64,000 bases of DNA from Trypanosoma brucei (lineage: Eukaryota), in NCBI GenBank assembly GCA_000002445.1, contig CH464491.1:2368001-2432000 (forward strand). Direction: 5' to 3'. The notes under the pieces are model-generated. The model was not told the DNA's origin, ran no database searches, and worked only from the letters and a program-made list of their open reading frames with translations. Numbering within the stretch: the first letter of the stretch is position 1; the number at the start of each line of letters is the position of its first letter. Shown piece after piece: positions 15,574-57,639 of this stretch. Both the position numbers and the translations under genes were made by a program.

Positions 15574-15802
15574 AATAATGCGGAAGATGCTGTCTTTCCC
15601 TCCACCACTTAACGTGTCGTTCTGTGGGAGCACGGTTTTTTACAATTATGCCGTCTTGGAACATCATTAATTGAAGGGAAAGTACTTTCCCCTCCCGTTT
15701 TAACTTGGGAAACTATATATCTTCGTTAACAGTCAGTCTTTATATATTATTTTTCACTGAATATACTATACCACCGATTCACATTTTTTTTCCATAAAGA
15801 AG

Positions 15803-21932: not shown

Positions 21933-22274
21933 ACAGTGCCATCATCAAATGACTGCTCTTTTCACTGCACTGTGAGACTTCGGGGGAAAATAGTGGTATT
22001 TTTTTTTTGAGCCAAAAGGAAAGGGGGGAAAGCATTAGGGCACTGCGTCTGATAGCTTTGAAGAAAAAGCAACTATAATTGTGGCAAGTAGGCATGGACG
22101 CTTGGTATAAAGATAAAACAAGTATCCTGTTTCTCCCCAAAGTCTTGCTCGTCATTTGTTAACATTCGTTTAAAAGTTCCCTTTTTTATATCTTTTCACC
22201 TCTCTTAAGCGTTTGTTGGGTCGGTGTCACTTGGTTGAAGGGAGAATAAAGACGCTCGTGACTTCCACCTCGCA

Positions 22275-24748: not shown

Positions 24749-25470
24749 GGTGGAATGCGGGGGGGGCCACCGGTTTGCATTTAATGAGCGTAGGTTATGC
24801 TTCTTCTTCGTTGATTCGATAGATTTTTCGTTATCTGGCGAGTGCGACGCCCGTGGGCGGTTTCTTCTTTTCTTTATTTTTTCGTCTTTCGCCGCGGTCG
24901 TCGCAGCATCGTGAGGGGAAGGCCGCAGAGGTTTGTGGAGGGTAGTGCAGGGCCCCCTCCTTTTTTTTCGAGTGTTACGCAATAAGCACACATAACCGCT
25001 GGGGGATGTAACGTTTTCACATAGGTGACCATATTCCTTTGAAGCGGGGGCTCTGTAGCAGGGGGCCGTGTTTTATGTCGTTCGTTTTGTGGGAGTATTG
25101 AACGAACGAACTGGAGAAGCGCATGGGTACACTACTGTATTCGGTTGTGCTGCGCCGCTTCTGGGAATTATCACTTACCTTCCTCGTTATGGTGAGAAGT
25201 GTAAGAAGTACATTTTGTGTCGCGATGCTGTTCCCACCACTCTCCTTGAGGCGCATTCCCTTTCCTTACCTTTGTTGTGTGAACAGCGTATCCACGCGTA
25301 CTTGTGCGTGTTTTAGGCGCGTGTTATTGCACGTATTTCATTTTTCAAAGGATTTTCACAACGCTGCTTTGCCGTGGGCAAAGGTGTCTGTTAAATCAAC
25401 CACAAAACTAGTGGGTGAGGTGGTGGCGCGGGAACTGCCGCTTTTTCACTTACTTTGATTCGTATCGTCG

Positions 25471-41576: not shown

Positions 41577-44228
41577 TTGGCGGTAGCCTCCTTAGTAGGG
41601 TGGGCGTATCAGACCATACGAGATCCACACACACACACACACAGAGAGAGAGAGACAGGGGGTGGTTGCCTTTTCGAAAAAGGGTCTGAGTTGCAAGGTT
41701 TTTTCTCCTTATATTATTTTACTTCACTTTTCATTTCACTCTCTTTCTGCCTAATGAGGATTCCACAGGGAGCAATGAAAGGGTTCCGGTGTGCTCCAAA
41801 TGTACGGTTGGTGGTAGCGCCATCGTGTAGTGCGATTGTTTCGGCACTTCGGTGCCTCACACAGTCTCCCCATCTTTGGTGTTCTCGCTGTTCAACTGGG
41901 CTTAAGGGTGACAAGAGCAAATTCCCAGATGCATCTACAGCACTGATACGAAACATCGGGATAGTTGCACACATCGATGCCGGAAAGACAACAACCACTG
42001 AACGTATGCTTTTTTACGCCGGAGCTGTGAAACGTGTGGGTGATGTGGATAGTGGTACCACCACAATGGATTTTATGAAAGAGGAGATGGACCGTGGAAT
42101 AACCATTCAGTCAGCGGCTGTGTCTTTTCAGTGGCGTGGTCACAGCATCCATCTTATTGACACCCCTGGTCATGTGGACTTTACAGTGGAAGTGGAGCGA
42201 GCCATGCGTGTTGTGGATGGTGTGGTTGCTCTTTTCGATGCGTCCGCTGGTGTTCAGGCCCAGAGTTATACGGTTCTTCGGCAGAGTAAGAAGTTTGGTG
42301 TACCTGTCATAGCTTTCTTGAACAAGATGGACAAGTACAACGCTGATTTTACAAAGTGCGTCAACTCGATTCGAAAAAAGTTGGAAATGGAACCTCTGTT
42401 ACTTCAGCTTCCGCTGAGTCGGGAGGATGGAAGCTTTGACGGGGTAGTTGATGTTGTGGAGCTGAAGAGCTATCGGTTTAGTGGTGACCACGGCTCAAAC
42501 GTCATCGTCGGTGATCTACGAGCGCATCGGAGCGAACCACCTCACGTTGTTGAAGCGGCCCGCGACGCCCGGCACGCCCTCCTCTCCACGTTAACCAGCG
42601 TAGACGACTCACTCGCAGACGCGGTTATCGCAGCGCTTGACGAAACTGGCGGTGACGAACAAAGAGCGGAGGACGCCATACCATGTGATGTACTGCGTGC
42701 GGCCATACGGAGGCAGACACTCCGGCAGAACAACTCACCCCGTCCGGTAATCCCCGTGCTATGTGGTGCATCGCGGCGTGACCAGGGGGTGCAGCCGGTT
42801 CTTGATGCTATCACATATTACTTACCTTCTCCGCAAGATCGTGTGCTCTACGGCTACACGAAGGATGGGGAATTGGTGCAACTGCCACCGGCAACAACCG
42901 CACCGTACGCTCCGTTCTTCGCACTCGCGTTCAAAGTTATCCACACAATGGGGCCCAAAGGTCAGCGGCAACCTTTAGTTTTTTTTCGTGTTTACAGTGG
43001 CCGAATAACAGCGCGAACGACACTTGTGAATAACAGCTCCAACAGTCACGAGAATATCGAAAAGCTTTATGTCATGCACGCAGATCATCAGGTTGAGGTT
43101 CCTCATCTCGCCGCCGGGCACATTGGTGCTGCTTTCATGCGGAACACCAAAACCGGGGCAACACTCTATCGTGAACCGCAACACGCTCAATCTGTAGTTG
43201 CAGGCTGTGGTAAGGAGGTTTTTACGCTTGAAGGTATTGATGCCCCATCACCAGTTATCTCCTTTTCTATTGAGGCCGCATCCAAGCACCAAATTTCCCT
43301 CCTGGAGGAGACACTGCAAGAGCTTAGCTTCGAGGACCCGAGTTTGCGGGTCAGCAGGAACAATTTCGGGCAAATAGTTATCAGTGGTATGGGTGAACTT
43401 CACCTGGAAATTGTTATGTCCAGATTGGAGCATTCGTACGGCCTGAAGTGCCGTCTGCTCCGTGCTATTATCGAATATCGGGAGGTAGTGCGCGAGCCGG
43501 TTGAGCTCAAGAATGTTATTGTAACAAATAACGAAGTTCCATACATTGAGTGCTCACTTAGGTTGCAGCCACTATTAGATGATGAGGGTGTCTGTGGCCC
43601 CAGTGAAGTGTGCTCATTCATTGTGGACGAAGCATTTGCAGGAAGTTTTTTATCATCCTCCGCGAACGAGGGGGGCGGTGACCGACGCCGCCGCATGGAT
43701 GACTGTCGGCGCAATGCTGTGGAAGAGCTGCGACTGATAACTGAGGTATTTAACAAAGCCTTGAGTGAATGCTTCCTCCTGGGGCCACTTGCCGGCCTCC
43801 CGCTTCACGGCGTCCGAGTGGTGTTGACGGGGTTCAGGAGGGTGGCTGCAACACAACTAACAGATCGGCCGCTTGCACAGGCCGCGCGTTCACTTTTACT
43901 TCAGCTCCTTCAGGCGGCACCGAAGACGACTTTGGCTGCGCTTGAACCTATGATGGAGGTGGAGGTGCACCTATCTGAACCCACGTACATTGGCGAGGTA
44001 GTGAGCTCCTTGAATGAGCGCAAGGCGGTTACCGTGGATATCCAGGAGGACGGAAAATCGGTAAGTGCAATCTTACCAATGCGGAACATCGTTCGTTATA
44101 CGATGGAACTGCGGAAGGCTGTGAAGGGACACGCCAACCTTTACGTCCGTTTGCATCATTACCGTACTATTGAGGACAAGGCTGTCCTTTCGAGGATCAT
44201 GAAGAACTTAGGTATATACGACAGTTAA
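41577..44228 (+). CDS. Elongation factor G-family translational GTPase, probably mitochondrial (EF-G2/RRF2mt-like)
   Basis: G1 AHIDAGKTT, G2 region RGITIQS, G3 DTPGHVDF, G4 NKMD. EF-G domain II-V-like sequence extends to ~880 aa. The first ~55 codons of the ORF cross a (CA)n(GA)n microsatellite. The real start is more likely Met 41754 or 41775 (MKGFRCAPNVRLVVAPS..., presequence-like). Confidence 0.8.
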   Translation: MAVASLVGWAYQTIRDPHTHTHRERETGGGCLFEKGSELQGFFSLYYFTSLFISLSFCLMRIPQGAMKGFRCAPNVRLVVAPSCSAIVSALRCLTQSPHLWCSRCSTGLKGDKSKFPDASTALIRNIGIVAHIDAGKTTTTERMLFYAGAVKRVGDVDSGTTTMDFMKEEMDRGITIQSAAVSFQWRGHSIHLIDTPGHVDFTVEVERAMRVVDGVVALFDASAGVQAQSYTVLRQSKKFGVPVIAFLNKMDKYNADFTKCVNSIRKKLEMEPLLLQLPLSREDGSFDGVVDVVELKSYRFSGDHGSNVIVGDLRAHRSEPPHVVEAARDARHALLSTLTSVDDSLADAVIAALDETGGDEQRAEDAIPCDVLRAAIRRQTLRQNNSPRPVIPVLCGASRRDQGVQPVLDAITYYLPSPQDRVLYGYTKDGELVQLPPATTAPYAPFFALAFKVIHTMGPKGQRQPLVFFRVYSGRITARTTLVNNSSNSHENIEKLYVMHADHQVEVPHLAAGHIGAAFMRNTKTGATLYREPQHAQSVVAGCGKEVFTLEGIDAPSPVISFSIEAASKHQISLLEETLQELSFEDPSLRVSRNNFGQIVISGMGELHLEIVMSRLEHSYGLKCRLLRAIIEYREVVREPVELKNVIVTNNEVPYIECSLRLQPLLDDEGVCGPSEVCSFIVDEAFAGSFLSSSANEGGGDRRRRMDDCRRNAVEELRLITEVFNKALSECFLLGPLAGLPLHGVRVVLTGFRRVAATQLTDRPLAQAARSLLLQLLQAAPKTTLAALEPMMEVEVHLSEPTYIGEVVSSLNERKAVTVDIQEDGKSVSAILPMRNIVRYTMELRKAVKGHANLYVRLHHYRTIEDKAVLSRIMKNLGIYDS
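41626..41656. repeat. (CA)n(GA)n dinucleotide microsatellite
   Basis: cacacacacacacacagagagagagagaca, read directly from the sequence. Confidence 0.9.
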
Positions 44229-45366: not shown

Positions 45367-46551
45367 GTGGGTAAAATGCTTGGAGCGAACCTTGGGATTA
45401 ACTTTCACACTGATGACGATCATGGTGATCATGGTGATCACGAGGGCCATGAGGGGCACGACATGGGGGGTTGCGCTCCAGCCGCAGGGTCGTACTCGAT
45501 GGGGCTTCACATTGCAGCCATTTTTATTCTCCTGATCGCGTCATTCCTTGGGACAGTTCTTCCCATTGCCGGGAACTATGTGCCACGATTCAAGCTGCCG
45601 CCGTTTCTTATTGTTGTTTCGAAGTGTATTTCCACAGGTGTTGTTATGTCAGTTGCCGTGTTAACACTGCTCAATCACAGCTTACACAGCTTCATGGAGA
45701 AGTGTATCCCACACGGGCTGAGTATGGAAGTGTACAGCGCTTTCGGCTTGCTGTTTATGCTGATCTCGGCTTTACTGATGCATTCATTCGACTCTGCCAT
45801 GGACCTCCTTCTTGAGGGTTGGGCGGTTCGTAAGGAAGAGGAGAAATTAGCCGACGGCGCACCGCAAGTGGCTGATAGTGTGCCGACGGCGGCGGCTCTT
45901 CCACCAACTCAATGCGGAATGAAGCGTTGCACGGCTCAACCAGGAGTATCATGTGAAACTAACGGCTGCTGCCAATCATCTCCGGGACCTGCGTACGGTG
46001 CTACCGGGTGCTGTGGAAGCCGTGGTGAAGCCGCTGCGCTGCTTACCGGTGCGCGGCGTGTTATGGCCCTAGCCTTAATGGAATTCGGTTTGGTGGTGCA
46101 CAGTATTTTTCTCGGTCTTTCCGTAGGTATTGCATCCGACTCGCGCACCAAAGTGCTGCTTGTGGCTCTTTCCTTCCATCAATTTTTTGAAGGCCTGGCT
46201 TTAGGGGCGCGGTTGGCGGAGGCGTCGCTGAAAGCCAAGTTGGAGTTATTTTTGGCCATCCTCTTTTCCATTTCTGTTCCTGTTGGTACGGCTATCGGTG
46301 CCGTTACCATGAGGGATGGCGGCAAAAGCATTACCGGCTCCAGTTACGTCACTATGAGCGCCATTGTCAATGCCATTGGTGCTGGTATTCTGCTTTACAT
46401 CGGTTTTGTCCTGCTTCTCGTTGATTTCCCAACGGATCTGCGCATATACGCGGGTGTCGGGACGCCGAATCGCTTTGTGAGACGCATTGCAATGTTTGTG
46501 GCCCTTTGGGTTGGCTTCGGTGTGATGGCGCTGCTGTCCAAGTGGCACTAG
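45367..46551 (+). CDS. ZIP-family (Zrt/Irt-like) divalent metal transporter, diverged paralogue with Cys-rich cytosolic loop
   Basis: 394 aa. Eight-TM ZIP layout with signature HSIFLGLSVG (TM4) and HQFFEGLALGARL (TM5). N-terminal His/Asp tract (HTDDDHGDHGDHEGHEGHD). The TM3-TM4 loop has CGMKRCTAQPGVSCETNGCCQSSPGPAYGATGCCGS. About 55-60% identical to the downstream array copies. Confidence 0.85.
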   Translation: MGKMLGANLGINFHTDDDHGDHGDHEGHEGHDMGGCAPAAGSYSMGLHIAAIFILLIASFLGTVLPIAGNYVPRFKLPPFLIVVSKCISTGVVMSVAVLTLLNHSLHSFMEKCIPHGLSMEVYSAFGLLFMLISALLMHSFDSAMDLLLEGWAVRKEEEKLADGAPQVADSVPTAAALPPTQCGMKRCTAQPGVSCETNGCCQSSPGPAYGATGCCGSRGEAAALLTGARRVMALALMEFGLVVHSIFLGLSVGIASDSRTKVLLVALSFHQFFEGLALGARLAEASLKAKLELFLAILFSISVPVGTAIGAVTMRDGGKSITGSSYVTMSAIVNAIGAGILLYIGFVLLLVDFPTDLRIYAGVGTPNRFVRRIAMFVALWVGFGVMALLSKWH

Positions 46552-48337
46552 GTAACGTAACTTTTTATTTACATTAATTTTTTTTCTTCACTCCCCCTAA
46601 CTTTGAGGAGTTGAATATGTTCGCACGTGGGTTAACACGTAACAAATAGTATCGCACGGAAAATGAACTCTTTACCGCGTGAGAGGCGTGTCGTGCTGAA
46701 GCGGACGCATCAGAGAAGAGGAGTAAATAAGCGAGGGATTGAGGGATGTTATGCTCACACGCTGTGTTCTGAGAGGTGGGGGAGAAGGTACTGAATTGGC
46801 ACTAAAATAGCGACGATGCGAAACAAGTAAGAAAATGAATAAGCAAAAGTTTTATGGGCAACGATTTTGAGAAAAAAAAATCAATTGCACAAATAGGCGG
46901 TAACCTCTTTATAGCTCTATCTTTTGAAACCCTATTCGCTAGTTTAGCGTTGCGGGGAAGCCGTCGTACTGATCCTAATCTCCTCACTTCCCTTCCTTCC
47001 CCTTCTATTTGTTTTTATTTACAAAATGATGGAAAGCGGGATGATTTGTTGTTCCTGGTGTGTATTCCTTTTTATTACTTATAATGATATGTTCATCATT
47101 GCTGTTATTAATTCGTTTTTGGTGTCTTATGCTATTTTTACATTTAGGGACTCTCATTTTATTTTTATTTTTTTCGAAGGTGTGTGAGTAACAACACATA
47201 CACAACTCGAGGGACTGAAGCATATCGGCGGGTATTGTATCAAGAAAAATTTTAAATTATTAACAAGCACAACACATCAGTGATGGGTCAAATGCAACGA
47301 AATCAGCGTGAAGGGTGAAATAAATAAATGAATCAAGACCTGAAGAAAACGAAATAGAAAGAGAACAGAAAAGGCAACGAATAAAATGGTGGAATGGAGA
47401 GTGAAAGTAACTTTTACAGAAAGGGAGAAGGGGAAAAGAAGAGATTAATAAAATAGGAAAATGTCGGAGGGAATCGAAGTGGCAGCACCTGAAAGAGACA
47501 GTTTAATATTAGCAGGGAAATCATTACTCATCCAATTCGCAACTCATATTCACGTGGTGAAGTGAGGCCGCGGCTTTGTTGCTATTTCTCTTACTCTTTG
47601 TGTACGTGTGTGTTTATTTTCTACGGCGTCGTTACCGGGGTTAATATCCAAAAGAAGGACTTAGTTTAACGTCATTCTAACAGATAAGTGTAATATTTGG
47701 GAGGAGACATTCTCGTATGTATTTTTGTTTTCCCCCCTTTTTGGCGTTATTTGGTGTCCGCTTGTTGGAGATTTATGTTCCTCATACATTTTTTTTTTTC
47801 AAAAAAAGCCTCAACTTGATAAATGCTCGTCCACGTGTGCCCTCCTTTGCCTTGCCTTATTTTTAACATATCTTTTTCAGTTATTCTTTGAGGTAATCTT
47901 CACAAAGTGGCACAGCAACAAAAAAAGATATATATGTATATATATCTAGCAACTGCATGATAATATTTGACATTGAAAGGTTTCAACCATCCTCAAGAGT
48001 ATATCTTCATACTTTTCCTTCACCCTTAATAAAAATCTCTCACATCCCGCTCCCCCCCGTTCCAAGGAAGAAAAAATTACACAAACACAGACACATTTCT
48101 TCACACAGCACCTACAGTCAAATAATAACAGAGCGGGGAGCTTCTAAGCAAAAGGTCCGACCAAGAAACAACCACAAAAAAAAAGGATTAAGAAATCGAA
48201 AAAATTGAAAAACATATAACTATACGACCAATTTAAAAAAAATAATAATAATTAAATTATGTAATAATAATAAAAATATATAACAACGATTCAGAAATAA
48301 AGAAAAAATATATAAAAAGCAACCAAAAACCAGGCGG

Positions 48338-48525
48338 TCGCCAGTGCTGTGTGTGGTGGGATGCTGCTGTACCTTGCTTTCTGCCTCATGTTGAGTGACT
48401 TCCCATCGGATATGCAGAAACATGCTGGGAAGGATAAGGTAAGGCGTTTCTTCAGATGCTTTGGGATGTTTGCGGCTCTTTGGCTTGGCGCTGCGTTGAT
48501 GGCCGTGTTAGGAAAATGGGTCTAA
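48338..48525 (+). pseudogene. Truncated 3' fragment (~62 codons) of a ZIP transporter gene marking the start of the tandem array
   Basis: caggcggtcgccagtgctgtgtgtggtgggatgctgctgtacc...tgggtctaa is identical to the 3' end of the copy at 49613..50797. It is fused upstream to unrelated AT-rich sequence and followed by the same 1087-bp intergenic unit. Confidence 0.8.
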
Positions 48526-49440
48526 GCACCCACTGTTCATGTGTGTGCCAATGGATTGCCCACTTCATTTTCTGTTTTCCTCGTACTCTTTTTCCAGCCC
48601 CCTTTTTCAGTTGTAATGATGCTCCCGCACGTGTGTTGCGTGGTCCGGTGAGCCATTGTGCCCTACCTGTTGCATGCGTTAGAGTTGTTCTTGAGGTGTG
48701 CTTGTGCATGTACATACATATATGTATATGTATATATACGTGTGTGTGTTTCTTGAGCTAGCGCCGAGTTGGGAGTGAGAGGAGTTGTGCTCTTCGTGTG
48801 TGCGTAGGTTTGAGCGTATGCGGACTGAGTGTCGGATGTTTAGCGGTGCGAAGCATAAGCAATTGCTCACGTGTTTGTATGCGTGTGTGTTGCGTACATG
48901 TTTCCAAACATCTACCCTGCCTTCAGGAGGGACCTGCACGAGTACATACATGAGCATATGTGCTGTGTTTACGCTTGTCCTTGATTTAGTTACAATATAC
49001 AACTGCGTACATCTACATTTTACTACTTTATGTTCGTTTGTTCATTTATTAGTATTTTTAAATAGCAATGCCCACCATCCTCGTAGTTACTCTACCGTGC
49101 TGGTGCGGGGGACGAAGCTGCAGACGCGTGGTGTACGAATATATGCATGCGTATGGATGTGTGTGCATGTGTTTCTGTGTGCGTCAATGCGCGTTTGAGT
49201 GTCTGCCTGCGCGTATATTTAAATAGTGATTTAGCGGATATCTGACTGTAGAGGGTACGACGGACGGGCTTATTTTCCACATGAGACTATTTCTTCCCCT
49301 GCTTTCTTTCTGTGCTGGTGCTGGTGCTGGTGTGTGTCTGTGTGTGCGCAGTTGTGGATGGGATGGTGGCAAATGTATCGCATTGCTGCTGTTCCCATCC
49401 CTTAGTGCCCCATTGTTTCTGCACGCTCTCGCTAAGCATT

Positions 49441-49520
49441 CCTTCTTACCCTTTTTGCCCATTGATTCTTTTTCTATGTTTGCCGTCCCTTTTTCACCTT
49501 TTTCTTTTTGGTGTGTGTAG
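49441..49520 (+). promoter_or_regulatory. Polypyrimidine tract plus downstream AG: candidate spliced-leader trans-splicing acceptor region for ZIP copy 1 (repeated before each array copy)
   Basis: ccttcttaccctttttgcccattgattctttttctatgtttgccgtccctttttcacctttttctttttgg then gtgtgtgtAG, ~95 nt upstream of the ATG. The same block recurs at 51713-51792, 53776-53860 and 55813-55897. Function inferred from kinetoplastid mRNA-processing rules, not shown by the sequence. Confidence 0.4.
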
Positions 49521-49612
49521 ATACCATAAAGTGACAGTCAGGTTTCGGTTGGTGCTGCCTTAGCTAATCTCAGCAAAAACACACTTCCTCTTTTTGTGAT
49601 ACAGTCAGAGCG

Positions 49613-50797
49613 ATGGCTAACGTTAATAACGAGACCACCGAATGTGGTGCATTGCTTTCGAATATCACTTCCCTACAGACGACGCTAACGTCTATGGGAT
49701 GCCAAGTGCCCGCCTTGCATCATCACACGCATGACCACGGCCACCATCACCATCATCATCATCATGACGATCACACCCACGGAGCGGACGACCACGAAGG
49801 TCACGGGCACAGTCACGGCGGGTGCGAAAGTGGTCATGGCACGTATTCCATTGGACTGCATGTTGTGGCGATCTTTGTTGTGTTGATTGCGTCGTTTCTG
49901 GGCACGCTGATACCGATAATCGGAAAGTACGTGCCGGCACTGCGGCTTCCTCCGTTTGTGTTTGTCCTTGGCAAGTGCATTGCAGCTGGAGTGCTACTGT
50001 CAGTGTCGACTATCCACATGATTAATGAAGCTGTAGCGCAGCTACAGGAAGATTGTGTTCCGGAGTCGTTTCGCGAATCATATGAGGCATATGCATTTCT
50101 GTTTGCTGTGGCTGGAGCGTTGCTGTTGCACATGGTGGACGTCATTGTTGACGCACGTGTGACAAACAAGAGCGATTCCAGCACCAACAAACCTGAGGGT
50201 CAACCCGATGCCGAAGAAGCTCAAGCGGCCCCGGCTGCTCTTGATGCGTACGATGGTCATCACTGCCACTACGCTGTCGGCATGCCACAGTCGAGGACCA
50301 GACGCCTCGTCTCTGCAATGTTTATGGAGTTTGCGGTAACTGTGCACAGTGTGTTCATTGGGCTGGCAGTCGGTATCGCAAGGGATGCGGAGACTAAAAC
50401 TTTACTTGTGGCTCTGGCATTTCATCAGATGTTGGAGGGCCTTGCTCTGGGCGCGCGTCTGGTGGATGCAGAGTTGAGCTTGAAGCTTGAAATGCTGTTT
50501 GCACTACTCTTCTCTGTCTCTGCGCCCCTGGGCACCGCAATTGCCGTTGGCACGATTGCGATTTGGAATGTGTCGATGGTAGGAACCGCGTTCGTGATTA
50601 CACAGGCGGTCGCCAGTGCTGTGTGTGGTGGGATGCTGCTGTACCTTGCTTTCTGCCTCATGTTGAGTGACTTCCCATCGGATATGCAGAAACATGCTGG
50701 GAAGGATAAGGTAAGGCGTTTCTTCAGATGCTTTGGGATGTTTGCGGCTCTTTGGCTTGGCGCTGCGTTGATGGCCGTGTTAGGAAAATGGGTCTAA
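49613..50797 (+). CDS. ZIP-family metal transporter, array copy 1 (type A, long His tract)
   Basis: 394 aa. N-terminal HHHTHDHGHHHHHHHHDDHTHGADDHEGHGHSHGG. TM4 HSVFIGLAVG, TM5 HQMLEGLALGARL. TM3-TM4 loop with DGHHCHY. Confidence 0.9.
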   Translation: MANVNNETTECGALLSNITSLQTTLTSMGCQVPALHHHTHDHGHHHHHHHHDDHTHGADDHEGHGHSHGGCESGHGTYSIGLHVVAIFVVLIASFLGTLIPIIGKYVPALRLPPFVFVLGKCIAAGVLLSVSTIHMINEAVAQLQEDCVPESFRESYEAYAFLFAVAGALLLHMVDVIVDARVTNKSDSSTNKPEGQPDAEEAQAAPAALDAYDGHHCHYAVGMPQSRTRRLVSAMFMEFAVTVHSVFIGLAVGIARDAETKTLLVALAFHQMLEGLALGARLVDAELSLKLEMLFALLFSVSAPLGTAIAVGTIAIWNVSMVGTAFVITQAVASAVCGGMLLYLAFCLMLSDFPSDMQKHAGKDKVRRFFRCFGMFAALWLGAALMAVLGKWV

Positions 50798-51884
50798 GCA
50801 CCCACTGTTCATGTGTGTGCCAATGGATTGCCCACTTCATTTTCTGTTTTCCTCGTACTCTTTTTCCAGCCCCCTTTTTCAGTTGTAATGATGCTCCCGC
50901 ACGTGTGTTGCGTGGTCCGGTGAGCCATTGTGCCCTACCTGTTGCATGCGTTAGAGTTGTTCTTGAGGTGTGCTTGTGCATGTACATACATATATGTATA
51001 TGTATATATACGTGTGTGTGTTTCTTGAGCTAGCGCCGAGTTGGGAGTGAGAGGAGTTGTGCTCTTCGTGTGTGCGTAGGTTTGAGCGTATGCGGACTGA
51101 GTGTCGGATGTTTAGCGGTGCGAAGCATAAGCAATTGCTCACGTGTTTGTATGCGTGTGTGTTGCGTACATGTTTCCAAACATCTACCCTGCCTTCAGGA
51201 GGGACCTGCACGAGTACATACATGAGCATATGTGCTGTGTTTACGCTTGTCCTTGATTTAGTTACAATATACAACTGCGTACATCTACATTTTACTACTT
51301 TATGTTCGTTTGTTCATTTATTAGTATTTTTAAATAGCAATGCCCACCATCCTCGTAGTTACTCTACCGTGCTGGTGCGGGGGACGAAGCTGCAGACGCG
51401 TGGTGTACGAATATATGCATGCGTATGGATGTGTGTGCATGTGTTTCTGTGTGCGTCAATGCGCGTTTGAGTGTCTGCCTGCGCGTATATTTAAATAGTG
51501 ATTTAGCGGATATCTGACTGTAGAGGGTACGACGGACGGGCTTATTTTCCACATGAGACTATTTCTTCCCCTGCTTTCTTTCTGTGCTGGTGCTGGTGCT
51601 GGTGTGTGTCTGTGTGTGCGCAGTTGTGGATGGGATGGTGGCAAATGTATCGCATTGCTGCTGTTCCCATCCCTTAGTGCCCCATTGTTTCTGCACGCTC
51701 TCGCTAAGCATTCCTTCTTACCCTTTTTGCCCATTGATTCTTTTTCTATGTTTGTCGTCCCTTTTTCACCTTTTTCTTTTTGGTGTGTGTAGATACCATA
51801 AAGTGACAGTCAGGTTTCGGTTGGTGCTGCCTTAGCTAATCTCAGCAAAAACACACTTCCTCTTTTTGTGATACAGTCAGAGCG

Positions 51885-53069
51885 ATGGCTAACGTTAATA
51901 ACGAGACCACCGAATGTGGTGCATTGCTTTCGAATATCACTTCCCTACAGACGACGCTAACGTCTATGGGATGCCAAGTGCCCGCCTTGCATCATCACAC
52001 GCATGACCACGGCCACCATCACCATCATCATCATCATGACGATCACACCCACGGAGCGGACGACCACGAAGGTCACGGGCACAGTCACGGCGGGTGTGAA
52101 AGTGGTCATGGCACGTATTCCATTGGACTGCATGTTGTGGCGATCTTTGTTGTGTTGATTGCGTCGTTTCTGGGCACGCTGATACCGATAATCGGAAAGT
52201 ACGTGCCGGCACTGCGGCTTCCTCCGTTTGTGTTTGTCCTTGGCAAGTGCATTGCAGCTGGAGTGCTACTGTCAGTGTCGACTATCCACATGATTAATGA
52301 AGCTGTAGCGCAGCTACAGGAAGATTGTGTTCCGGAGTCGTTTCGCGAATCATATGAGGCATATGCATTTCTGTTTGCTGTGGCTGGAGCGTTGCTGTTG
52401 CACATGGTGGACGTCATTGTTGACGCACGTGTGACAAACAAGAGCGATTCCAGCACCAACAAACCTGAGGGTCAACCCGATGCCGAAGAAGCTCAAGCGG
52501 CCCCGGCCGCTCTTGATGCGTACGATGGTCATCACTGCCACTACGCTGTCGGCATGCCACAGTCGAGGACCAGACGCCTCGTCTCTGCAATGTTTATGGA
52601 GTTTGCGGTAACTGTGCACAGTGTGTTCATTGGGCTGGCAGTCGGTATCGCAAGGGATGCGGAGACCAAAACTTTACTTGTGGCTCTGGTTTTTCATCAG
52701 ATGTTGGAGGGCCTTGCTCTGGGCGCGCGTCTGGTGGATGCAGAGTTGAGCTTGAAGCTTGAAATGCTGTTTGCACTACTCTTCTCTGTCTCTGCGCCCC
52801 TGGGCACCGCAATTGCCGTTGGCACGATTGCGATTTGGAATGTGTCGATGGTAGGAACCGCGTTCGTGATTACACAGGCGGTCACCAGTGCTGTGTGTGG
52901 TGGGATGCTGCTGTACCTTGCTTTCTGCCTCATGTTGAGTGACTTCCCATCGGATATGCAGAAACATGCTGGGAAGGATAAGGTAAGGCGTTTCTTCAGA
53001 TGCTTTGGGATGTTTGCGGCTCTTTGGTTTGGCGCTGCGTTAATGGCCTTTATCGGAAAGTGGATCTAA
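51885..53069 (+). CDS. ZIP-family metal transporter, array copy 2 (type A 5' part, type-B-like 3' end)
   Basis: 394 aa, >98% identical to copy 1. C-terminus reads WFGAALMAFIGKWI like copies 3/4, not WLGAALMAVLGKWV as in copy 1. Confidence 0.9.
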   Translation: MANVNNETTECGALLSNITSLQTTLTSMGCQVPALHHHTHDHGHHHHHHHHDDHTHGADDHEGHGHSHGGCESGHGTYSIGLHVVAIFVVLIASFLGTLIPIIGKYVPALRLPPFVFVLGKCIAAGVLLSVSTIHMINEAVAQLQEDCVPESFRESYEAYAFLFAVAGALLLHMVDVIVDARVTNKSDSSTNKPEGQPDAEEAQAAPAALDAYDGHHCHYAVGMPQSRTRRLVSAMFMEFAVTVHSVFIGLAVGIARDAETKTLLVALVFHQMLEGLALGARLVDAELSLKLEMLFALLFSVSAPLGTAIAVGTIAIWNVSMVGTAFVITQAVTSAVCGGMLLYLAFCLMLSDFPSDMQKHAGKDKVRRFFRCFGMFAALWFGAALMAFIGKWI

Positions 53070-53954
53070 GCACCCACTGTTCATGTGTGTGCCAATGGAT
53101 TGCCCACTTCATTTTCTGTTTTCCTCGTACTCTTTTTCCAGCCCCCTTTTTCAGTTGTAATGATGCTCCCGCACGTGTGTTGCGTGGTCCGGTGAGCCAT
53201 TGTGCCCTACCTGTTGCATGCGTTAGAGTTGTTCTTGAGGTGTGCTTGTGCATGTACATACATATATGTATATGTATATATACGTGTGTGTGCTTAGTAC
53301 ATGTTTCCAAACATCTACCCTGCCTTCAGGAGGGACCCGCACGAGTACATACATGAGCAAATGTGCTCCGTTTTTTTGTTTTATAACATACAACTGTACT
53401 ACAAAGTTCAACTCAGTATACCTAAATTTCAGTGTTTTTTTTATTGTCAACGTTTTTTTCTCGTTTTAGCAATGCCCACCATCCTCGTTGTTACTCTACC
53501 GTGCTGGTGCGGGGGACGAAGCTGCAGACGCGTGGTGTACGAATATATGCATGCGTATGGATGTGTGTGCATGTGTTTCTGTGTGCGTCAATGCGCGTTT
53601 GAGTGTCTGCCTGCGCGTATATTTAAATAGTGATTTAGCGGATATCTGACTGTAGAGGGTACGACGGACGGGCTTATTTTTTACATCATATTTGTAGTCG
53701 TTTTTGTCGTTTTTCAATTATTTTTTGTTTTTTAAAAATATTCTTACAACATTTGTGTCTATGTACGCTCTCGCTAAGCATTCCTTCTTACCCTTTTTGC
53801 CCATTGATTCTTTTTCTATGTTTGCCGTCCCTTTTTCACCTTTTTCTTTTTGGTGTGTGTAGATACCATAAAGTGACAGTCAGGTTTCGGTTGGTGCTGC
53901 CTTAGCTAATCTCAGCAAAAACACACTTCCTCTTTTTGTGATACAGTCAGAGCG

Positions 53955-55106
53955 ATGGCTAACGTTAATAACGAGACCACCGAATGTGGTGCATTGCTTT
54001 CGAATATCACTTCCCTACAGACGACGCTAACGTCTATGGGATGCCAAGTGCCCGTCTTGCATCATCATCATCGTGACAATCACACCCACGGAGTGGTCGA
54101 CGATGGAATTGATGGAGACACTCACGGCGGGTGTGAAAGTGGTCATGGCACGTATTCCATTGGACTGCATGTTGTGGCGATCTTTGTTGTGTTGATTGCG
54201 TCGTTTCTGGGCACGCTGATACCGATAATCGGAAAGTACGTGCCGGCACTGCGGCTTCCTCCGTTTGCGCTTGTCCTTGGCAAGTGCATTGCAGCTGGAG
54301 TGCTACTGTCAGTGTCGACTATCCACATGATTAATGAATCTATTTTACAGCTACAGGAAGATTGTGTTCCGGAGTCGTTTCGCGAATCATATGAGGCATA
54401 TGCATTTCTGTTTGCTGTGGCTGGAGCGTTGTTAATGCAGATGGTGGACGTAATTGTGGATAAATATGTGACAAATAAGAGCGATTCCAGCACCAACAAA
54501 CCTGAGGGTCAACCCGATGCCGAAGAAGCTCAAGCGGCCCCGGCTGCTCTTGATGCGTACGATGGTCATCACTGCCACTACGCTGTCGGCATGCCACAGT
54601 CGAGGACTAAACGTCTCGTCGCTGCAATGTTTATGGAGTTTGCGGTAACTGTGCACAGTGTGTTTGTCGGGCTGGCAGTCGGTATCGCAAGGGATGCGGA
54701 GACCAAAACTTTACTTGTGGCTCTGGTTTTTCATCAGATGTTGGAGGGCCTTGCTCTGGGTGCGCGTCTGGTGGATGCAGAGTTGAGCTTGAAGCTTGAA
54801 ATGCTGTTTGCACTACTCTTCTCTGTCTCTGCGCCCCTGGGCACCGCAATTGCCGTTGGCACGATTGCGATTTGGAATGTGTCGATGGTAGGAACCGCGT
54901 TCGTGATTACACAGGCGGTCACCAGTGCTGTGTGTGGTGGGATGCTGCTGTACCTTGCTTTCTGCCTCATGTTGAGTGACTTCCCATCGGATATGCAGAA
55001 ACATGCTGGGAAGGATAAGGTAAGGCGTTTCTTCAGATGCTTTGGGATGTTTGCGGCTCTTTGGTTTGGCGCTGCGTTAATGGCCTTTATCGGAAAGTGG
55101 ATCTAA
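53955..55106 (+). CDS. ZIP-family metal transporter, array copy 3 (type B, short His tract)
   Basis: 383 aa. N-terminal HHHHRDNHTHGVVDDGIDGDTHGG replaces the long His tract. The rest is collinear with copies 1/2. Confidence 0.9.
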   Translation: MANVNNETTECGALLSNITSLQTTLTSMGCQVPVLHHHHRDNHTHGVVDDGIDGDTHGGCESGHGTYSIGLHVVAIFVVLIASFLGTLIPIIGKYVPALRLPPFALVLGKCIAAGVLLSVSTIHMINESILQLQEDCVPESFRESYEAYAFLFAVAGALLMQMVDVIVDKYVTNKSDSSTNKPEGQPDAEEAQAAPAALDAYDGHHCHYAVGMPQSRTKRLVAAMFMEFAVTVHSVFVGLAVGIARDAETKTLLVALVFHQMLEGLALGARLVDAELSLKLEMLFALLFSVSAPLGTAIAVGTIAIWNVSMVGTAFVITQAVTSAVCGGMLLYLAFCLMLSDFPSDMQKHAGKDKVRRFFRCFGMFAALWFGAALMAFIGKWI

Positions 55107-55991
55107 GCACCCACTGTTCATGTGTGTGCCAATGGATTGCCCACTTCATTTTCTGTTTTCCTCGTACTCTTTTTCCAGCCCCCTTTTTCAGTTGTAATGA
55201 TGCTCCCGCACGTGTGTTGCGTGGTCCGGTGAGCCATTGTGCCCTACCTGTTGCATGCGTTAGAGTTGTTCTTGAGGTGTGCTTGTGCATGTACATACAT
55301 ATATGTATATGTATATATACGTGTGTGTGCTTAGTACATGTTTCCAAACATCTACCCTGCCTTCAGGAGGGACCTGCACGAGTACATACATGAGCAAATG
55401 TGCTCCGTTTTTTTGTTTTATAACATACAACTGTACTACAAAGTTCAACTCAGTATACCTAAATTTCAGTGTTTTTTTTATTGTCAACGTTTTTTTCTCG
55501 TTTTAGTAATGCCCACCATCCTCGTTGTTACTCTACCGTGCTGGTGCGGGGGACGAAGCTGCAGACGCGTGGTGTACGAATATATGCATGCGTATGGATG
55601 TGTGTGCATGTGTTTCTGTGTGCGTCAATGCGCGTTTGAGTGTCTGCCTGCGCGTATATTTAAATAGTGATTTAGCGGATATCTGACTGTAGAGGGTACG
55701 ACGGACGGGCTTATTTTTTACATCATATTTGTAGTCGTTTTTGTCGTTTTTCAATTATTTTTTGTTTTTTAAAAATATTCTTACAACATTTGTGTCTATG
55801 TACGCTCTCGCTAAGCATTCCTTCTTACCCTTTTTGCCCATTGATTCTTTTTCTATGTTTGCCGTCCCTTTTTCACCTTTTTCTTTTTGGTGTGTGTAGA
55901 TACCATAAAGTGACAGTCAGGTTTCGGTTGGTGCTGCCTTAGCTAATCTCAGCAAAAACACACTTCCTCTTTTTGTGATACAGTCAGAGCG

Positions 55992-57155
55992 ATGGCTAAC
56001 GTTAATAACGAGACCACCGAATGTGGTGCATTGCTTTCGAATATCACTTCCCTACAGACGACGCTAACGTCTATGGGATGCCAAGTGCCCGCCTTGCATC
56101 ATCATCATCGTGACAATCACACCCACGGAGTGGTCGACGATGGAATTGATGGAGACACTCACGGCGGGTGTGAAAGTGGTCATGGCACGTATTCCATTGG
56201 ACTGCATGTTGTGGCGATCTTTGTTGTGTTGATTGCGTCGTTTCTGGGCACGCTGATACCGATAATCGGAAAGTACGTGCCGGCACTGCGGCTTCCTCCG
56301 TTTGCGCTTGTCCTTGGCAAGTGCATTGCAGCTGGAGTGCTACTGTCAGTGTCGACGATCCACATGATTAATGAATCTATTTTACAGCTACAGGAAGATT
56401 GTGTTCCGGAGTCGTTTCGCGAATCATATGAGGCATATGCATTTCTGTTTGCTGTGGCTGGAGCGTTGCTGTTGCACATGGTGGACGTCCTTTCTGGTTT
56501 TTGTGTTCGTCGGGATGAAATGGTTTATAGTGATACTTCGGCAGTTGTTCCGCATGAGGTTATCGATGCCGAAGAAGCTCAAGCGGCCCCGGCTGCTCTT
56601 GATGCGTACGATGGTCATCACTGCCACTACGCTGTCGGCATGCCACAGTCGAGGACTAAACGTCTTTTTTCTGCAATGTTTATGGAGTTTGCGGTAACTG
56701 TGCACAGTGTGTTTGTCGGGCTGGCAGTCGGTATCGCAAGGGATGCGGAGACCAAAACTTTACTTGTGGCTCTGGTTTTTCATCAGATGTTGGAGGGCCT
56801 TGCTCTGGGCGCGCGTCTGGTGGATGCAGAGTTGAGCTTGAAGCTTGAAATGCTGTTTGCACTACTCTTCTCTGTCTCTGCGCCCCTGGGCACCGCAATT
56901 GCCGTTGGCACGATTGCGATTTGGAATGTGTCGATGGTAGGAACCGCGTTCGTGATTACACAGGCGGTCACCAGTGCTGTGTGTGGTGGGATGCTGCTGT
57001 ACCTTGCTTTCTGCCTCATGTTGAGTGACTTCCCATCGGATATGCAGAAACATGCTGGGAAGGATAAGGTAAGACGTTTCTTCAGATGCTTTGGGATGTT
57101 TGCGGCTCTTTGGCTTGGCGCTGCGTTAATGGCCTTTATTGGAAAATGGATCTAA
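55992..57155 (+). CDS. ZIP-family metal transporter, array copy 4 (type B with replaced TM3-TM4 loop segment)
   Basis: 387 aa. As copy 3, but loop segment VIVDKYVTNKSDSSTNKPEGQPD is replaced by LSGFCVRRDEMVYSDTSAVVPHEVID (77 nt vs 65 nt, in frame). Confidence 0.9.
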   Translation: MANVNNETTECGALLSNITSLQTTLTSMGCQVPALHHHHRDNHTHGVVDDGIDGDTHGGCESGHGTYSIGLHVVAIFVVLIASFLGTLIPIIGKYVPALRLPPFALVLGKCIAAGVLLSVSTIHMINESILQLQEDCVPESFRESYEAYAFLFAVAGALLLHMVDVLSGFCVRRDEMVYSDTSAVVPHEVIDAEEAQAAPAALDAYDGHHCHYAVGMPQSRTKRLFSAMFMEFAVTVHSVFVGLAVGIARDAETKTLLVALVFHQMLEGLALGARLVDAELSLKLEMLFALLFSVSAPLGTAIAVGTIAIWNVSMVGTAFVITQAVTSAVCGGMLLYLAFCLMLSDFPSDMQKHAGKDKVRRFFRCFGMFAALWLGAALMAFIGKWI

Positions 57156-57297
57156 ATCTAAATTGTTTTGTGAATTTGTGTATATTTTAAATTCCTGTTT
57201 TTTTCTTTGTCTTTTTCTTTGTCTTTTTCTATGTTGCTTTTTTTTTTTGTTTTTCTTTTTTGTTTTTTTTTTAATGTTAGGTTTTTTATTGTCCACT

Positions 57298-57639
57298 ATG
57301 TCCCGTGTCCCTATTAGCGAAGAACAGGCACAACAGTTGCTGATGAAGCAACAAGCGCAGGAGGAAAAGCAGGAAGCAATGAGAGAACAGAAAGAAAGTA
57401 TTTTGCGCGCCGTTGTGTCTGCTGAAGGAAGGGAACGCCTGACCCGACTGAGTCAGGTGAAAGCTGATCGTGCAACAGCTGTGGAATCTTATATCATACA
57501 AGCTGTTCGCCAAGGCAAGCTACAACCGCCCGTTTCTGATGAAATGGTGCGGGAAATTCTTGAACAAATGTCTTCTCAGTCAGCGGAATCCAAGAGCAAT
57601 ATTGTGTTTGCCCGGAAACGCATGGATGACGATTGGTGA
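57298..57639 (+). CDS. PDCD5: PDCD5/TFAR19-family protein (programmed cell death protein 5 homologue)
   Basis: Start at Met 57298 inside a longer low-complexity ORF. ILRAVVSAEGRERLTRLSQVKADRATAVESYIIQAVRQGKLQPPVSDEMVREILEQMS matches remembered PDCD5 ([50 protein letters not shown]). About 113 aa. Confidence 0.75.
   Translation: MSRVPISEEQAQQLLMKQQAQEEKQEAMREQKESILRAVVSAEGRERLTRLSQVKADRATAVESYIIQAVRQGKLQPPVSDEMVREILEQMSSQSAESKSNIVFARKRMDDDW

What the first reader, a model, noticed from the sequence alone, without database searches (positions are those of the whole stretch)
45367..57155. Layered tandem cluster of ZIP metal-transporter genes: diverged founder, truncated first unit, two type-A and two type-B units
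- Five complete ZIP genes plus one 3' fragment lie within 12 kb.
- Array junction at ~48338: the repeat starts ~60 codons before the stop codon of a copy and abuts unrelated AT-rich sequence, as expected for the edge of an unequal-crossover-generated array.
- Unit periods are 2272, 2272/2070 and 2037 bp.
- Type A versus type B units differ in intergenic length and in the N-terminal ectodomain. The coding sequences are otherwise near-identical, so homogenisation is ongoing while specific segments are diversified.
- Tandem amplification of a metal importer is a plausible dosage and variability mechanism for a parasite facing host nutritional immunity.
Basis: partly seen in the sequence, partly recalled or inferred. 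Interest (0 to 1): 0.6.

Follow-up and report, generated by a model that had tools for sequence, protein, structure and literature searches.

The report
Known trypanosome zinc-transporter (ZIP3) gene array

Summary
Window 45.4-57.2 kb carries five complete ZIP (PF02535) genes and one 194-nt 3' gene fragment. A head-to-tail repeat runs from 48332 to the stop codon at 57155, with periods of 2272, 2272 and 2037-2070 nt. There are two spacer and coding types, A and B.

The window is T. brucei brucei TREU927 chromosome 11. The genes are Tb927.11.8990 (ZIP3a) and Tb927.11.9000-9030 (ZIP3). The array was catalogued as Tb113 by Jackson (2007), used as a textbook example by Jackson (2014), and studied functionally by Leao et al. 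(NAR 2026). In that study ZIP3 mRNA is destroyed in zinc-replete cells through GU-repeat motifs in its 3'UTR by the nuclease ZNK1. The same paper reports 5 genes in the 927 assembly against 16 in Lister 427.

- ZIP3a is not the array's "founder". It is an ancient paralogue that holds the same 5' position in T. vivax and T. cruzi.
- The "diversified" segments also have raised synonymous divergence, so they look like old blocks that escaped gene conversion.

Small additions from this work:
- The truncated fragment is conserved across T. brucei subspecies.
- The type-B spacer has half the GU motifs of type A, and the last gene has none.
- The order A-run, B-run, terminal variant is conserved, while the A copy number varies.

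Already known; low interest.

The parts
45376..46551 (+). ZIP3a (Tb927.11.8990), the diverged 5' paralogue, 391 aa
   Evidence: Exact match to EAN79852/XP_828964. Pfam Zip E = 3e-42. 44% identical to the array genes. Groups with the 5'-most ZIP genes of T. vivax and T. cruzi.
46552..48331 (+). Unique AT-rich region X between ZIP3a and the array. It ends in an A-rich tract and presumably holds the ZIP3a 3'UTR.
   Evidence: No other copy in the window. GC is 0.42 for the 2-kb bin 46001-48000 that covers most of it. One GU motif. 98.4-99.7% conserved in DAL972 and T. equiperdum.
48332..48525 (+). Orphan 3' fragment of a ZIP3 coding sequence (64 codons plus stop) at the left edge of the array
   Evidence: 100% identical to 50604-50797 of gene 9000. 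In-frame stop at 48313 and no usable start codon. The junction is conserved in DAL972, T. equiperdum OVI and IVM-t1. Absent from the T. vivax first spacer.
48526..49612 (+). Type-A spacer, copy 0 (ZIP3 3'UTR, intergenic region and 5'UTR). It follows the orphan fragment.
   Evidence: Differs at one position from 50798-51884. Nine GTGTGTG[TC] motif starts in eight GU runs. Motif positions match the MUT1-3 description in PMC13569496.
49613..50797 (+). ZIP3 gene 1, Tb927.11.9000, type A, 394 aa
   Evidence: Exact match to EAN79853. Pfam Zip E = 1.6e-47.
50798..51884 (+). Type-A spacer, copy 1 (3'UTR of gene 9000)
51885..53069 (+). ZIP3 gene 2, Tb927.11.9010, 394 aa. Type A in its 5' part, switching to type B between 52631 and 52667.
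   Evidence: Exact match to EAN79854. Variable-site pattern.
53070..53954 (+). Type-B spacer (3'UTR of gene 9010), 885 nt
   Evidence: Relative to type A it lacks the equivalents of 48752-48892 and 49338-49399 and has diverged blocks. Five motif starts in four GU runs. It keeps the (GU)4-5 run at 3'UTR nt 215.
53955..55106 (+). ZIP3 gene 3, Tb927.11.9020, type B, 383 aa
   Evidence: Exact match to EAN79855. Short, His-poor N-terminal block.
55107..55991 (+). Type-B spacer (3'UTR of gene 9020)
   Evidence: 99.8% identical to 53070-53954. GU motifs counted.
55992..57155 (+). Terminal ZIP3 variant, Tb927.11.9030, 387 aa. It has a type-B N-terminus, a unique block in the TM3-TM4 loop (56489-56563) and a mosaic 3' end.
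   Evidence: Exact match to EAN79856. Loop block pS 0.67, pN 0.52. No nucleotide donor in the window. The same variant is the last gene in DAL972 and T. equiperdum.
57156..57297 (+). Unique 142-nt pyrimidine-rich gap between the last ZIP3 stop codon and the next gene. It has no GU motif.
   Evidence: Repeat homology ends at the TAA. ATCTAA is duplicated at the edge. No motif. Sequence shown.
57298..57639 (+). Right flank: PDCD5-like dsDNA-binding protein gene, 113 aa
   Evidence: Pfam PF01984 E = 4e-23. Same neighbour in DAL972 and T. equiperdum.
41577..44228 (+). Left flank: EF-G-like GTPase gene.
   Evidence: Pfam GTP_EFTU, EFG_III and EFG_C. Same neighbour in DAL972, T. equiperdum and T. 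vivax.

Best explanation
The region is the ZIP3 zinc-importer locus of Trypanosoma brucei brucei TREU927, chromosome 11.

**Layout.**
- An old paralogue, ZIP3a (Tb927.11.8990), sits upstream.
- It is followed by 1.8 kb of unique sequence and a relic 3' end of a lost or truncated ZIP3 copy.
- Then come four head-to-tail ZIP3 genes (Tb927.11.9000-9030), all on the + strand and so presumably within one polycistronic transcription unit.

**How the array evolves.** It grows, shrinks and is homogenised by unequal crossing-over and gene conversion between units. Interior type-A units are therefore nearly identical and vary in number between strains. Units nearer the 3' edge (type B and the terminal variant) keep older sequence blocks.

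**Function: shown in the literature, not here.** ZIP3 mRNA rises more than 4-fold when zinc is limiting. In zinc-replete cells it is degraded through its 3'UTR by the zinc-knuckle/PIN protein ZNK1. GU-repeat motifs are implicated in this control.

**Inferred here.** Each gene's 3'UTR is the spacer that follows it, so the array holds three regulatory grades:
- Gene 9000 has a type-A 3'UTR with eight GU runs.
- Genes 9010 and 9020 have a type-B 3'UTR with four GU runs, which still includes the run whose replacement abolished control in the published reporter.
- Gene 9030 has only 142 nt before the next gene and no GU motif, so it is probably expressed with little zinc control.

Copy number sets the mRNA dose, because trypanosomes cannot tune transcription gene by gene.
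For: **Identity**
- All five proteins are exact matches to TREU927 entries EAN79852-56.
- All five match Pfam Zip.
- The TM4 HS...G and TM5 HQ..EG motifs are invariant in all five.

**Array anatomy**
-.

**Independent assemblies**
- They show the same junction and the same A-run, B-run, terminal-variant order.
- T. equiperdum has 6 A + 2 B + 1 terminal gene, against 2 + 1 + 1 in 927.
- Lister 427 has 16 genes in all (PMC13569496).

**Conversion**
- Mosaic boundaries differ between strains, and strain-specific variants are shared by paralogues.
- Array copies cluster by species, while ZIP3a keeps its orthology across species (Jackson 2014).

**Regulation**
- Motif positions 16 and 215, and the absence of any 8-mer motif at 3'UTR nt 76-150, match the MUT1-3 description in the paper.
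- The paper states that GU motifs are absent or diminished in the flanking ZIP3a-c genes and that these respond less than 2-fold to ZNK1 loss.
Against: - No transport, expression or RNA-end data were generated here.
- The assignment of whole spacers as 3'UTRs follows the 888-nt 3'UTR reported for strain 427 and is not mapped in 927.
- The graded-regulation idea for type B is untested. Type B keeps the one motif shown to matter, so it may respond fully.
- The 927 copy number (4) may be an assembly collapse rather than a true count.
- DAL972 has a 100-N gap inside the array, so its mosaic gene 3 may be partly artefactual.
- An earlier paper labelled Tb927.11.8990 and 9000 as iron transporters IRT1/IRT2.
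Confidence: 0.9

Rival explanations
1. The array is an assembly artefact. Either one gene was duplicated by mis-assembly, or the copies are identical once sequencing errors are removed.
For: The 927 chromosome 11 sequence is an old clone- and shotgun-based assembly. Two units differ at only 6 of 2272 positions.
Against: - Independent assemblies of three other Trypanozoon strains carry the same junction, the same unit types and the same order.
- A long-read assembly has nine copies, and strain 427 has 16 genes in all.
- Types A and B differ by structured indels of 141, 62 and 33 nt and by in-frame coding changes that are conserved across strains.
- The likelier error is collapse, meaning too few copies in 927.
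Confidence: 0.02
2. The A/B differences in the His-rich ectodomain and the loop variant of the last gene are products of positive, diversifying selection on metal capture (host nutritional immunity), not relics that escaped homogenisation.
For: - Non-synonymous changes are concentrated in a metal-binding His-rich segment: 11 non-synonymous against 4 synonymous changes, plus an 11-codon indel.
- His content falls from 19 of 35 to 7 of 24 residues.
- Both types are kept in all strains examined.
Against: - Synonymous divergence is raised in the same blocks (pS 0.25 and 0.67 against about 0.07 elsewhere).
- pN/pS stays below 1 (about 0.6 and 0.8).
- The samples are very small, and conversion tracts confound dN/dS.
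- Retention of both types fits purifying selection on two old isoforms equally well.
Confidence: 0.15
3. The array encodes iron (or broad divalent-metal) importers rather than zinc importers.
For: - ZIP proteins often carry Fe, Mn or Zn.
- Leishmania LIT1 and T. cruzi TcIT are ZIP-family iron transporters (named).
- Tb927.11.8990 and 9000 were labelled IRT1/IRT2 in an iron-starvation study.
Against: - ZIP3 mRNA responded to zinc chelation, and only zinc, not iron, reversed the response.
- znk1 null cells with raised ZIP3 accumulate excess zinc.
- The closest characterised relative named by the authors is the zinc importer LiZIP3 (PMC13569496).
- Substrate range was not measured directly for each copy.
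Confidence: 0.1

Closest known systems
TbZIP3 / TbZIP3a locus, Tb927.11.8990-9030 (Leao et al., Nucleic Acids Res 2026, PMC13569496)
   Same: It is the same locus. The proteins are identical to the TREU927 entries. The paper describes the tandem cluster, the diverged upstream paralogue, GU-repeat 3'UTR control by ZNK1, and 5 genes in 927 against 16 in 427.
   Different: The paper treats 9000-9030 as one ZIP3 group in 927. In the text read here it does not mention the orphan 3' fragment, the type-A and type-B spacers, or the His-rich ectodomain difference. Its text has 0 occurrences of 'pseudogene', and its single use of 'histidine' concerns zinc-finger modules, not ZIP3.
Array Tb113 'cation transporter' in Jackson 2007 (BMC Evol Biol 7:54) and Fig. 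4b of Jackson 2014 (Parasitology 142:S40)
   Same: Same array. It was already classed as 'mixed dynamics', with a divergent 5' copy and a remodelled intergenic spacer. The 5' copy keeps orthology across Trypanosoma while downstream copies cluster by species. Stage-specific expression of 5' against downstream copies is also reported. My tree reproduces this.
   Different: Those papers predate long-read assemblies and the zinc/ZNK1 work. The terminal 3' variant and the A/B layering are not described in the passages retrieved.
Leishmania infantum LiZIP3 (LINF_280025700-800), a zinc-regulated zinc importer
   Same: Named by Leao et al. as the closest characterised orthologue. It is syntenic, present as a tandem pair, and its mRNA is down-regulated by zinc. 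Leishmania ZIP relatives are 36-37% identical over 82-86% of the query.
   Different: Two copies rather than 4-15. The proteins are longer (about 430-450 aa) with a larger TM3-TM4 loop. Three GU motif sites per putative 3'UTR rather than six.
Other trypanosomatid tandem arrays with differentiated end copies (Leishmania beta-tubulin and rac adenylate cyclase arrays)
   Same: The interior copies are homogenised. The differentiated copies, and differentiated terminal UTRs, lie at the ends of the array (Jackson 2014).
   Different: Different gene families. Here the terminal differentiation removes a defined metal-responsive RNA element.

Membership tests
ZIP (Zrt/Irt-like protein, SLC39) metal transporter family | Significant match to the family profile (Pfam PF02535) over nearly its full length | tested here: met
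   All five proteins score 145-163 bits against a cut-off of 35.1 and cover profile positions 2-322 of 323.
ZIP (Zrt/Irt-like protein, SLC39) metal transporter family | Conserved metal-coordinating motifs in TM4 (H-S/N-x-x-x-G) and TM5 (H-E/Q-x-x-E-G). The motif definition comes from my own knowledge of the family. | tested here: met
   HSVF(I/V)GL and HQ(M/F)(L/F)EGLALG are present. H242, S243, H268, Q269, E272 and G273 (ZIP3a numbering) are invariant in all five copies.
ZIP (Zrt/Irt-like protein, SLC39) metal transporter family | Eight transmembrane helices with a variable, His-containing cytoplasmic loop between TM3 and TM4 | tested here: inconclusive
   A crude Kyte-Doolittle scan finds hydrophobic segments at about 85-103, 116-134, 161-179, 237-255, 294-312, 320-351 and 373-391, and the loop contains DGHHCHY. 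No proper topology predictor or structure was run. PDB sequence search gave no hit at E <= 0.001.
ZIP (Zrt/Irt-like protein, SLC39) metal transporter family | Transport of Zn2+ or another divalent metal into the cytosol | not testable with these tools
   Only indirect published evidence. ZIP3 mRNA is induced by zinc chelation, and znk1 null cells with raised ZIP3 accumulate zinc.
Tandem gene array under concerted evolution (unequal crossing-over / gene conversion) | Head-to-tail units on one strand, with high identity that extends through the non-coding spacers | tested here: met
   Units are 97.9-99.7% identical over 2.0-2.3 kb, spacers included.
Tandem gene array under concerted evolution (unequal crossing-over / gene conversion) | Copy number differs between strains | tested here: met
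   4 ZIP3-type genes in 927 and 9 in T. equiperdum IVM-t1. 15 plus ZIP3a in Lister 427. Caveat: the short-read and clone assemblies may be collapsed (100-N gap in DAL972; OVI contig ends inside the array).
Tandem gene array under concerted evolution (unequal crossing-over / gene conversion) | Paralogues within a genome are more alike than orthologues between species, with mosaic conversion tracts | tested here: met
   Array copies cluster by species for T. brucei, T. vivax and T. cruzi. A/B block boundaries differ among strains, and strain-specific variants are shared among paralogues.
ZNK1-controlled ZIP3 3'UTR (Leao et al. 2026) | Multiple GUGUGUG(U/C) motifs in the 3'UTR, including the five-GU run in the third 75-nt block after the stop codon | tested here: met
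   - Type-A spacers have motif starts at nt 16, 215/217, 271, 358, 634, 805, 815 and 986.
- Type-B spacers have starts at nt 16, 215/217, 494 and 784.
- Not met for the sequence after gene 9030 (0 motifs).
- Essentially not met after ZIP3a (1 motif in 1779 nt).
ZNK1-controlled ZIP3 3'UTR (Leao et al. 2026) | Zinc- and ZNK1-dependent mRNA decay conferred by the sequence | not testable with these tools
   Shown by the authors for the ZIP3 3'UTR reporter. Not tested separately for the type-B spacer or the 9030 downstream sequence.

The most novel reading that the evidence does not exclude
The array may be a built-in graded zinc response rather than a set of equivalent copies.

**Three grades of copy**
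- His-rich type-A proteins carry the full six-site GU 3'UTR, are fully ZNK1-controlled, and vary in number between strains.
- His-poor type-B proteins carry a half-strength 3'UTR.
- A terminal isoform has an older-type cytoplasmic loop and no GU element, giving constitutive basal import.

**Orphan fragment**
- The orphan 3' fragment together with a complete type-A 3'UTR downstream of ZIP3a (48332-49612) may be processed into a non-coding, GU-rich RNA.
- Alternatively it may extend the ZIP3a 3'UTR.
- Either way it could couple ZIP3a to ZNK1 or titrate ZNK1.
Probability: 0.2. Interest if true: 0.4.

Novelty: already known. Interest (0 to 1): 0.15.

Why it matters
As a discovery it adds little. 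The genes are annotated, the array has been used since 2007 as an example of tandem-array evolution in trypanosomes, and its zinc-responsive control was published in 2026.

Its value is as a worked example of how a parasite that cannot regulate transcription gene by gene combines three things:
- copy number, which sets dose;
- 3'UTR elements, which provide metal sensing;
- differentiated end copies, which provide isoforms.

The small new details could guide follow-up reporter and uptake experiments by groups already working on ZIP3/ZNK1:
- a conserved orphan fragment that carries a full regulatory 3'UTR;
- halved GU motif content in type-B spacers;
- no GU motif after the terminal gene;
- His-rich against His-poor ectodomains.

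Tried and rejected
1. **Donor for the 9030 loop block.** I looked for a nucleotide donor in ZIP3a, in region X and in the rest of the window. Local alignment scores were at the level of shuffled controls, so a recent ectopic conversion from ZIP3a is rejected. A frameshift origin is also rejected, because no alternative frame of the A/B sequence gives the variant peptide.
2. **Region X as a repeated element.** Because of the A-rich tract at the junction, I asked whether X (46552-48331) is a repeat or retroposon remnant. It has no second copy in the window. The genome itself is not searchable with these tools, so this stays open.
3. **3' fragment in T. vivax.** I looked for an equivalent 3' coding fragment in the first T. 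vivax spacer. Only the 49 nt just upstream of the start codon are shared with the other units.
4. **PDB sequence search.** Gene 9000 found nothing at E <= 0.001. I did not go on to structure prediction, because family membership is already clear from Pfam.
5. **Failed scripts.**
6. **Other T. brucei paper.** The 8-hydroxy-naphthyridine study concerns ZnT-type Golgi transporters, not this locus.

Full report
**What is there.** ORF listing shows five same-strand ORFs of 383-394 aa between 45367 and 57155. All five match Pfam Zip (PF02535) over essentially the whole profile, with E from 3e-42 to 1e-47.

Repeat finding and self-BLAST show a head-to-tail array:
- Start-to-start spacings are 2272, 2272, 2037 and 2049 nt, or 2272, 2070 and 2037 depending on which part of the unit is used as register.
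- Identity is 99.4% over 2692 nt between the first two units.
- Identity is 97.9% over 2429 nt between the last two.

The left edge is sharp. Homology to the other units begins at 48332 (CAGGCGGTC...), 64 codons before a TAA at 48523-48525. It directly abuts an A-rich, non-ZIP sequence. The fragment has an in-frame stop at 48313 and no start codon. The right edge is equally sharp: homology ends at the TAA of the last gene (57153-57155), where the hexamer ATCTAA is duplicated.

**Anatomy of the units.** A column-by-column alignment and a protein alignment define two types.

- *Type A.* This comprises the fragment, spacer 48526-49612, gene 49613-50797, spacer 50798-51884 and most of gene 51885-53069. 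The two A units differ at 6 of 2272 positions.
- *Type B.* This comprises the last ~400-440 nt of gene 2 (from between 52631 and 52667), spacers 53070-53954 and 55107-55991, gene 53955-55106 and most of gene 55992-57155.
- *Spacer differences.* B spacers are 885 nt against 1087 nt for A. They lack the equivalents of 48752-48892 and 49338-49399 and have two strongly diverged blocks.
- *Coding differences.* B genes lack 33 nt (49718-49750 in A) and differ in a substitution cluster just downstream. The extracellular His-rich stretch drops from 19 His in 35 residues to 7 in 24.
- *The last gene.* It has a 75-nt (+12 nt) block at 56489-56563 that is almost unalignable with the other copies and changes the start of the TM3-TM4 loop. 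Its 3' end is a mosaic of A-type, B-type and private variants.

**Whose genome, and is it known.** The first array protein is 100% identical to 'cation transporter, putative' of Trypanosoma brucei. An exact look-up places all five proteins in T. b. brucei TREU927 as EAN79852-EAN79856, on a 5.26-Mb contig. That makes them Tb927.11.8990 and Tb927.11.9000-9030 on chromosome 11.

The locus is well described in three papers:
- *Jackson 2007* catalogued it as array Tb113 'cation transporter', with 'mixed dynamics' and a divergent copy at the 5' end accompanied by a remodelled intergenic spacer.
- *Jackson 2014* used it as Fig. 4b. The 5'-most copy is preferentially expressed in procyclic forms and is essential there. 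[quoted passage not shown] The differentiated copy keeps orthology across species while the others cluster by species.
- *Leao et al. 2026* named the genes TbZIP3a and TbZIP3. ZIP3 mRNA rises more than 4-fold on zinc chelation, and this is reversed by zinc but not iron. The ZIP3 3'UTR confers this behaviour on a reporter. A genome-wide RNAi screen found the nuclear zinc-knuckle/PIN protein ZNK1. A GUGUGUG(U/C) motif occurs at six places in the 888-nt 3'UTR. The array has five genes in the 927 assembly and sixteen in Lister 427.

**Checks against other genomes.** I fetched the locus from T. b. gambiense DAL972, T. equiperdum OVI and T. equiperdum IVM-t1 (a chromosome-scale assembly, taken here to be long-read).

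- The junction between unique sequence and the 3' fragment is present in all three at 98.3-99.6% identity across the breakpoint. The truncated unit is therefore real and predates the split of these subspecies.
- T. equiperdum IVM-t1 reads: ZIP3a, X, fragment, six A genes, two B genes, terminal variant, then the same downstream gene.
- 927 reads: fragment, two A, one B, terminal.
- DAL972 shows four genes but has a 100-N gap inside the array. The OVI contig stops 2.2 kb after ZIP3a. Both are signs that short-read or clone assemblies break or collapse here.
- The order A-run, B-run, terminal variant is conserved, and the variation in number lies mainly in the A units.
- A variable-site matrix of all 17 coding sequences shows that the A/B block boundaries sit at different places in different strains. 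For example, the T. equiperdum B genes carry a B-type N-terminus on an A-type TM1-3 region. Some variants are shared by all paralogues of one strain but not by other strains. That is the signature of continuing conversion and unequal exchange.

**The 'founder'.**
- ZIP3a is 44% identical in protein to the array genes and has no nucleotide similarity to them.
- In T. vivax the syntenic locus (rpiB, EF-G, ZIP genes, BCCIP, DnaJ) has a 402-aa first gene followed by four near-identical genes. T. cruzi has six ZIP genes in a row.
- In an NJ tree, ZIP3a groups with the T. vivax first gene (50/50 bootstraps). It also groups with the first two T. cruzi genes and a T. grayi paralogue (50/50). The remaining copies cluster by species.
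- ZIP3a is thus an ancient paralogue that has kept the 5' position, not a recent founder of the array. This repeats Jackson's published result.
- The first T. vivax spacer has no 3' coding fragment, so the relic is specific to the T. brucei lineage among those examined.

**Are the variable segments 'diversified'?** Nei-Gojobori counts are:

| Comparison | pS | pN |
|---|---|---|
| A vs B, whole gene | 0.080 | 0.039 |
| A vs B, His-rich block | 0.25 | 0.155 |
| A vs B, C-terminal part of the coding sequence (codons 206 to the end) | 0.072 | 0.023 |
| Loop block of the last gene | 0.67 | 0.52 |

Synonymous divergence rises together with non-synonymous divergence, and the ratio stays below 1. The simplest reading is that these are older sequence blocks that conversion has not overwritten. 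They may be retained because the isoforms differ in function. Accelerated diversification is not shown. The numbers are small, so positive selection cannot be excluded.

The loop block has no donor elsewhere in the window and is not a frameshifted version of the common sequence. Its peptide (SGFCVRRDE) loosely recalls the ZIP3a loop (EGWAVRKEE), which hints that it is the older state. That resemblance is weak.

**How it most likely works.**

*Shown elsewhere:* ZIP3 is the zinc-responsive importer system of T. brucei, and its mRNA is removed by ZNK1 through the 3'UTR when zinc is sufficient.

*Shown here:* the spacers in this window are that 3'UTR.
- The type-A spacer has motifs at nt 16 and 215, and no 8-mer motif between nt 76 and 150.
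- This matches the paper's MUT1 (one motif), MUT2 (none) and MUT3 (the five-GU run whose replacement abolished control).

Motif counts differ by unit:

| Sequence | Motif starts | GU runs |
|---|---|---|
| Type-A spacer | 9 | 8 |
| Type-B spacer | 5 (keeps nt 16 and nt 215) | 4 |
| After the last gene | 0 | 0 |
| 1779 nt after ZIP3a | 1 | not counted by the same criterion |

The last gene is only 142 nt from the start codon of the next gene.

*Inferred:* because a gene's 3'UTR is the spacer after it, gene 9000 is fully controlled. Genes 9010 and 9020 carry a reduced element. Gene 9030 is largely outside ZNK1 control. This agrees with the paper's remark that the flanking ZIP3a-c genes of strain 427 have absent or diminished motifs and change less than 2-fold in znk1 nulls.

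*Also inferred:* the orphan fragment is followed by a complete type-A 3'UTR. It is either a silent relic, part of a long ZIP3a 3'UTR, or a separate GU-rich non-coding transcript.

**Origin of the truncated unit.**
- The repeat starts inside a coding sequence and ends at a stop codon.
- A single duplication of one segment could produce this only if that segment already held a 3' gene fragment ahead of a complete gene, which merely moves the question back.
- The simplest history is an array of at least two ZIP3 genes whose first member lost its 5' 990 nt and upstream spacer by deletion or replacement with region X.
- Homogenisation of the remaining 3' end and spacer with the neighbouring A unit has continued since, and they are now identical.
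- I could not test whether X derives from a mobile element.

**Verdict.** However, the locus is annotated, has been analysed as an array since 2007, and has a published regulatory mechanism. The 'founder' label and the 'diversified segments' claim need correction. What this work adds is minor: conservation of the relic, the A/B difference in GU motif content and His content, and the conserved A-B-terminal order with variable A copy number.

Noticed in passing
window 7385-14527: Long ORFs lie on the minus strand up to about 11406 and on the plus strand from 14527 onward. This looks like a divergent strand-switch region, probably a polycistron start, about 31 kb upstream of the ZIP genes.
   Followed up: no
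window 39471-39991: Three GU runs lie within 520 nt: (GT)6T at 39471, (GT)5T at 39973 and GTGTGTT at 39985. They give five matches to the ZNK1-type motif in one kilobase, the only such cluster in the window outside the ZIP array. They sit downstream of the 1293-aa ORF at 35176-39057. I did not check whether that gene responds to zinc or ZNK1.
   Followed up: no
window 57149-57160: The hexamer ATCTAA, which contains the stop codon of the last ZIP3 gene, is directly duplicated exactly where repeat homology ends. This may be a microhomology footprint of the event that set the right edge.
   Followed up: partly
window 48040-48331: The roughly 290 nt just left of the array junction are strongly A-rich on the coding strand. 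This is unusual for trypanosome intergenic DNA upstream of a gene and is reminiscent of a retroposon tail. There is no second copy in the window, and the genome could not be searched.
   Followed up: partly
L002 13644-13743 (T. b. gambiense DAL972); L001 end (T. equiperdum OVI): DAL972 has a 100-N gap inside the ZIP3 array, and the two genes after the gap are flagged 'LOW QUALITY PROTEIN'. The OVI contig ends 2.2 kb after ZIP3a. Copy numbers from these assemblies are not reliable.
   Followed up: yes
L004/L005 merged (T. equiperdum IVM-t1), genes at merged coordinates 14545-15728, 21360-22540 and 25442-26591: Three of the nine ZIP3-type copies carry 1-4 single-base indels relative to 927 and were not called as genes. 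These are probably long-read homopolymer errors rather than true pseudogenes.
   Followed up: no
L007 1688-13039 (T. cruzi, GCA_013358655.1): T. cruzi has six tandem ZIP genes, two ZIP3a-like and four near-identical. They are flanked by a peptidase S15 gene and MCM6, not by the EF-G and BCCIP neighbours seen in T. brucei and T. vivax. The array position is therefore not fully syntenic in this assembly.
   Followed up: no
window 41626-41642: An (AC)8 run lies near the start of the ORF-tool version of the EF-G-like gene. It lies upstream of the annotated 817-824-aa start, so it is probably in the 5'UTR or intergenic region.
   Followed up: no
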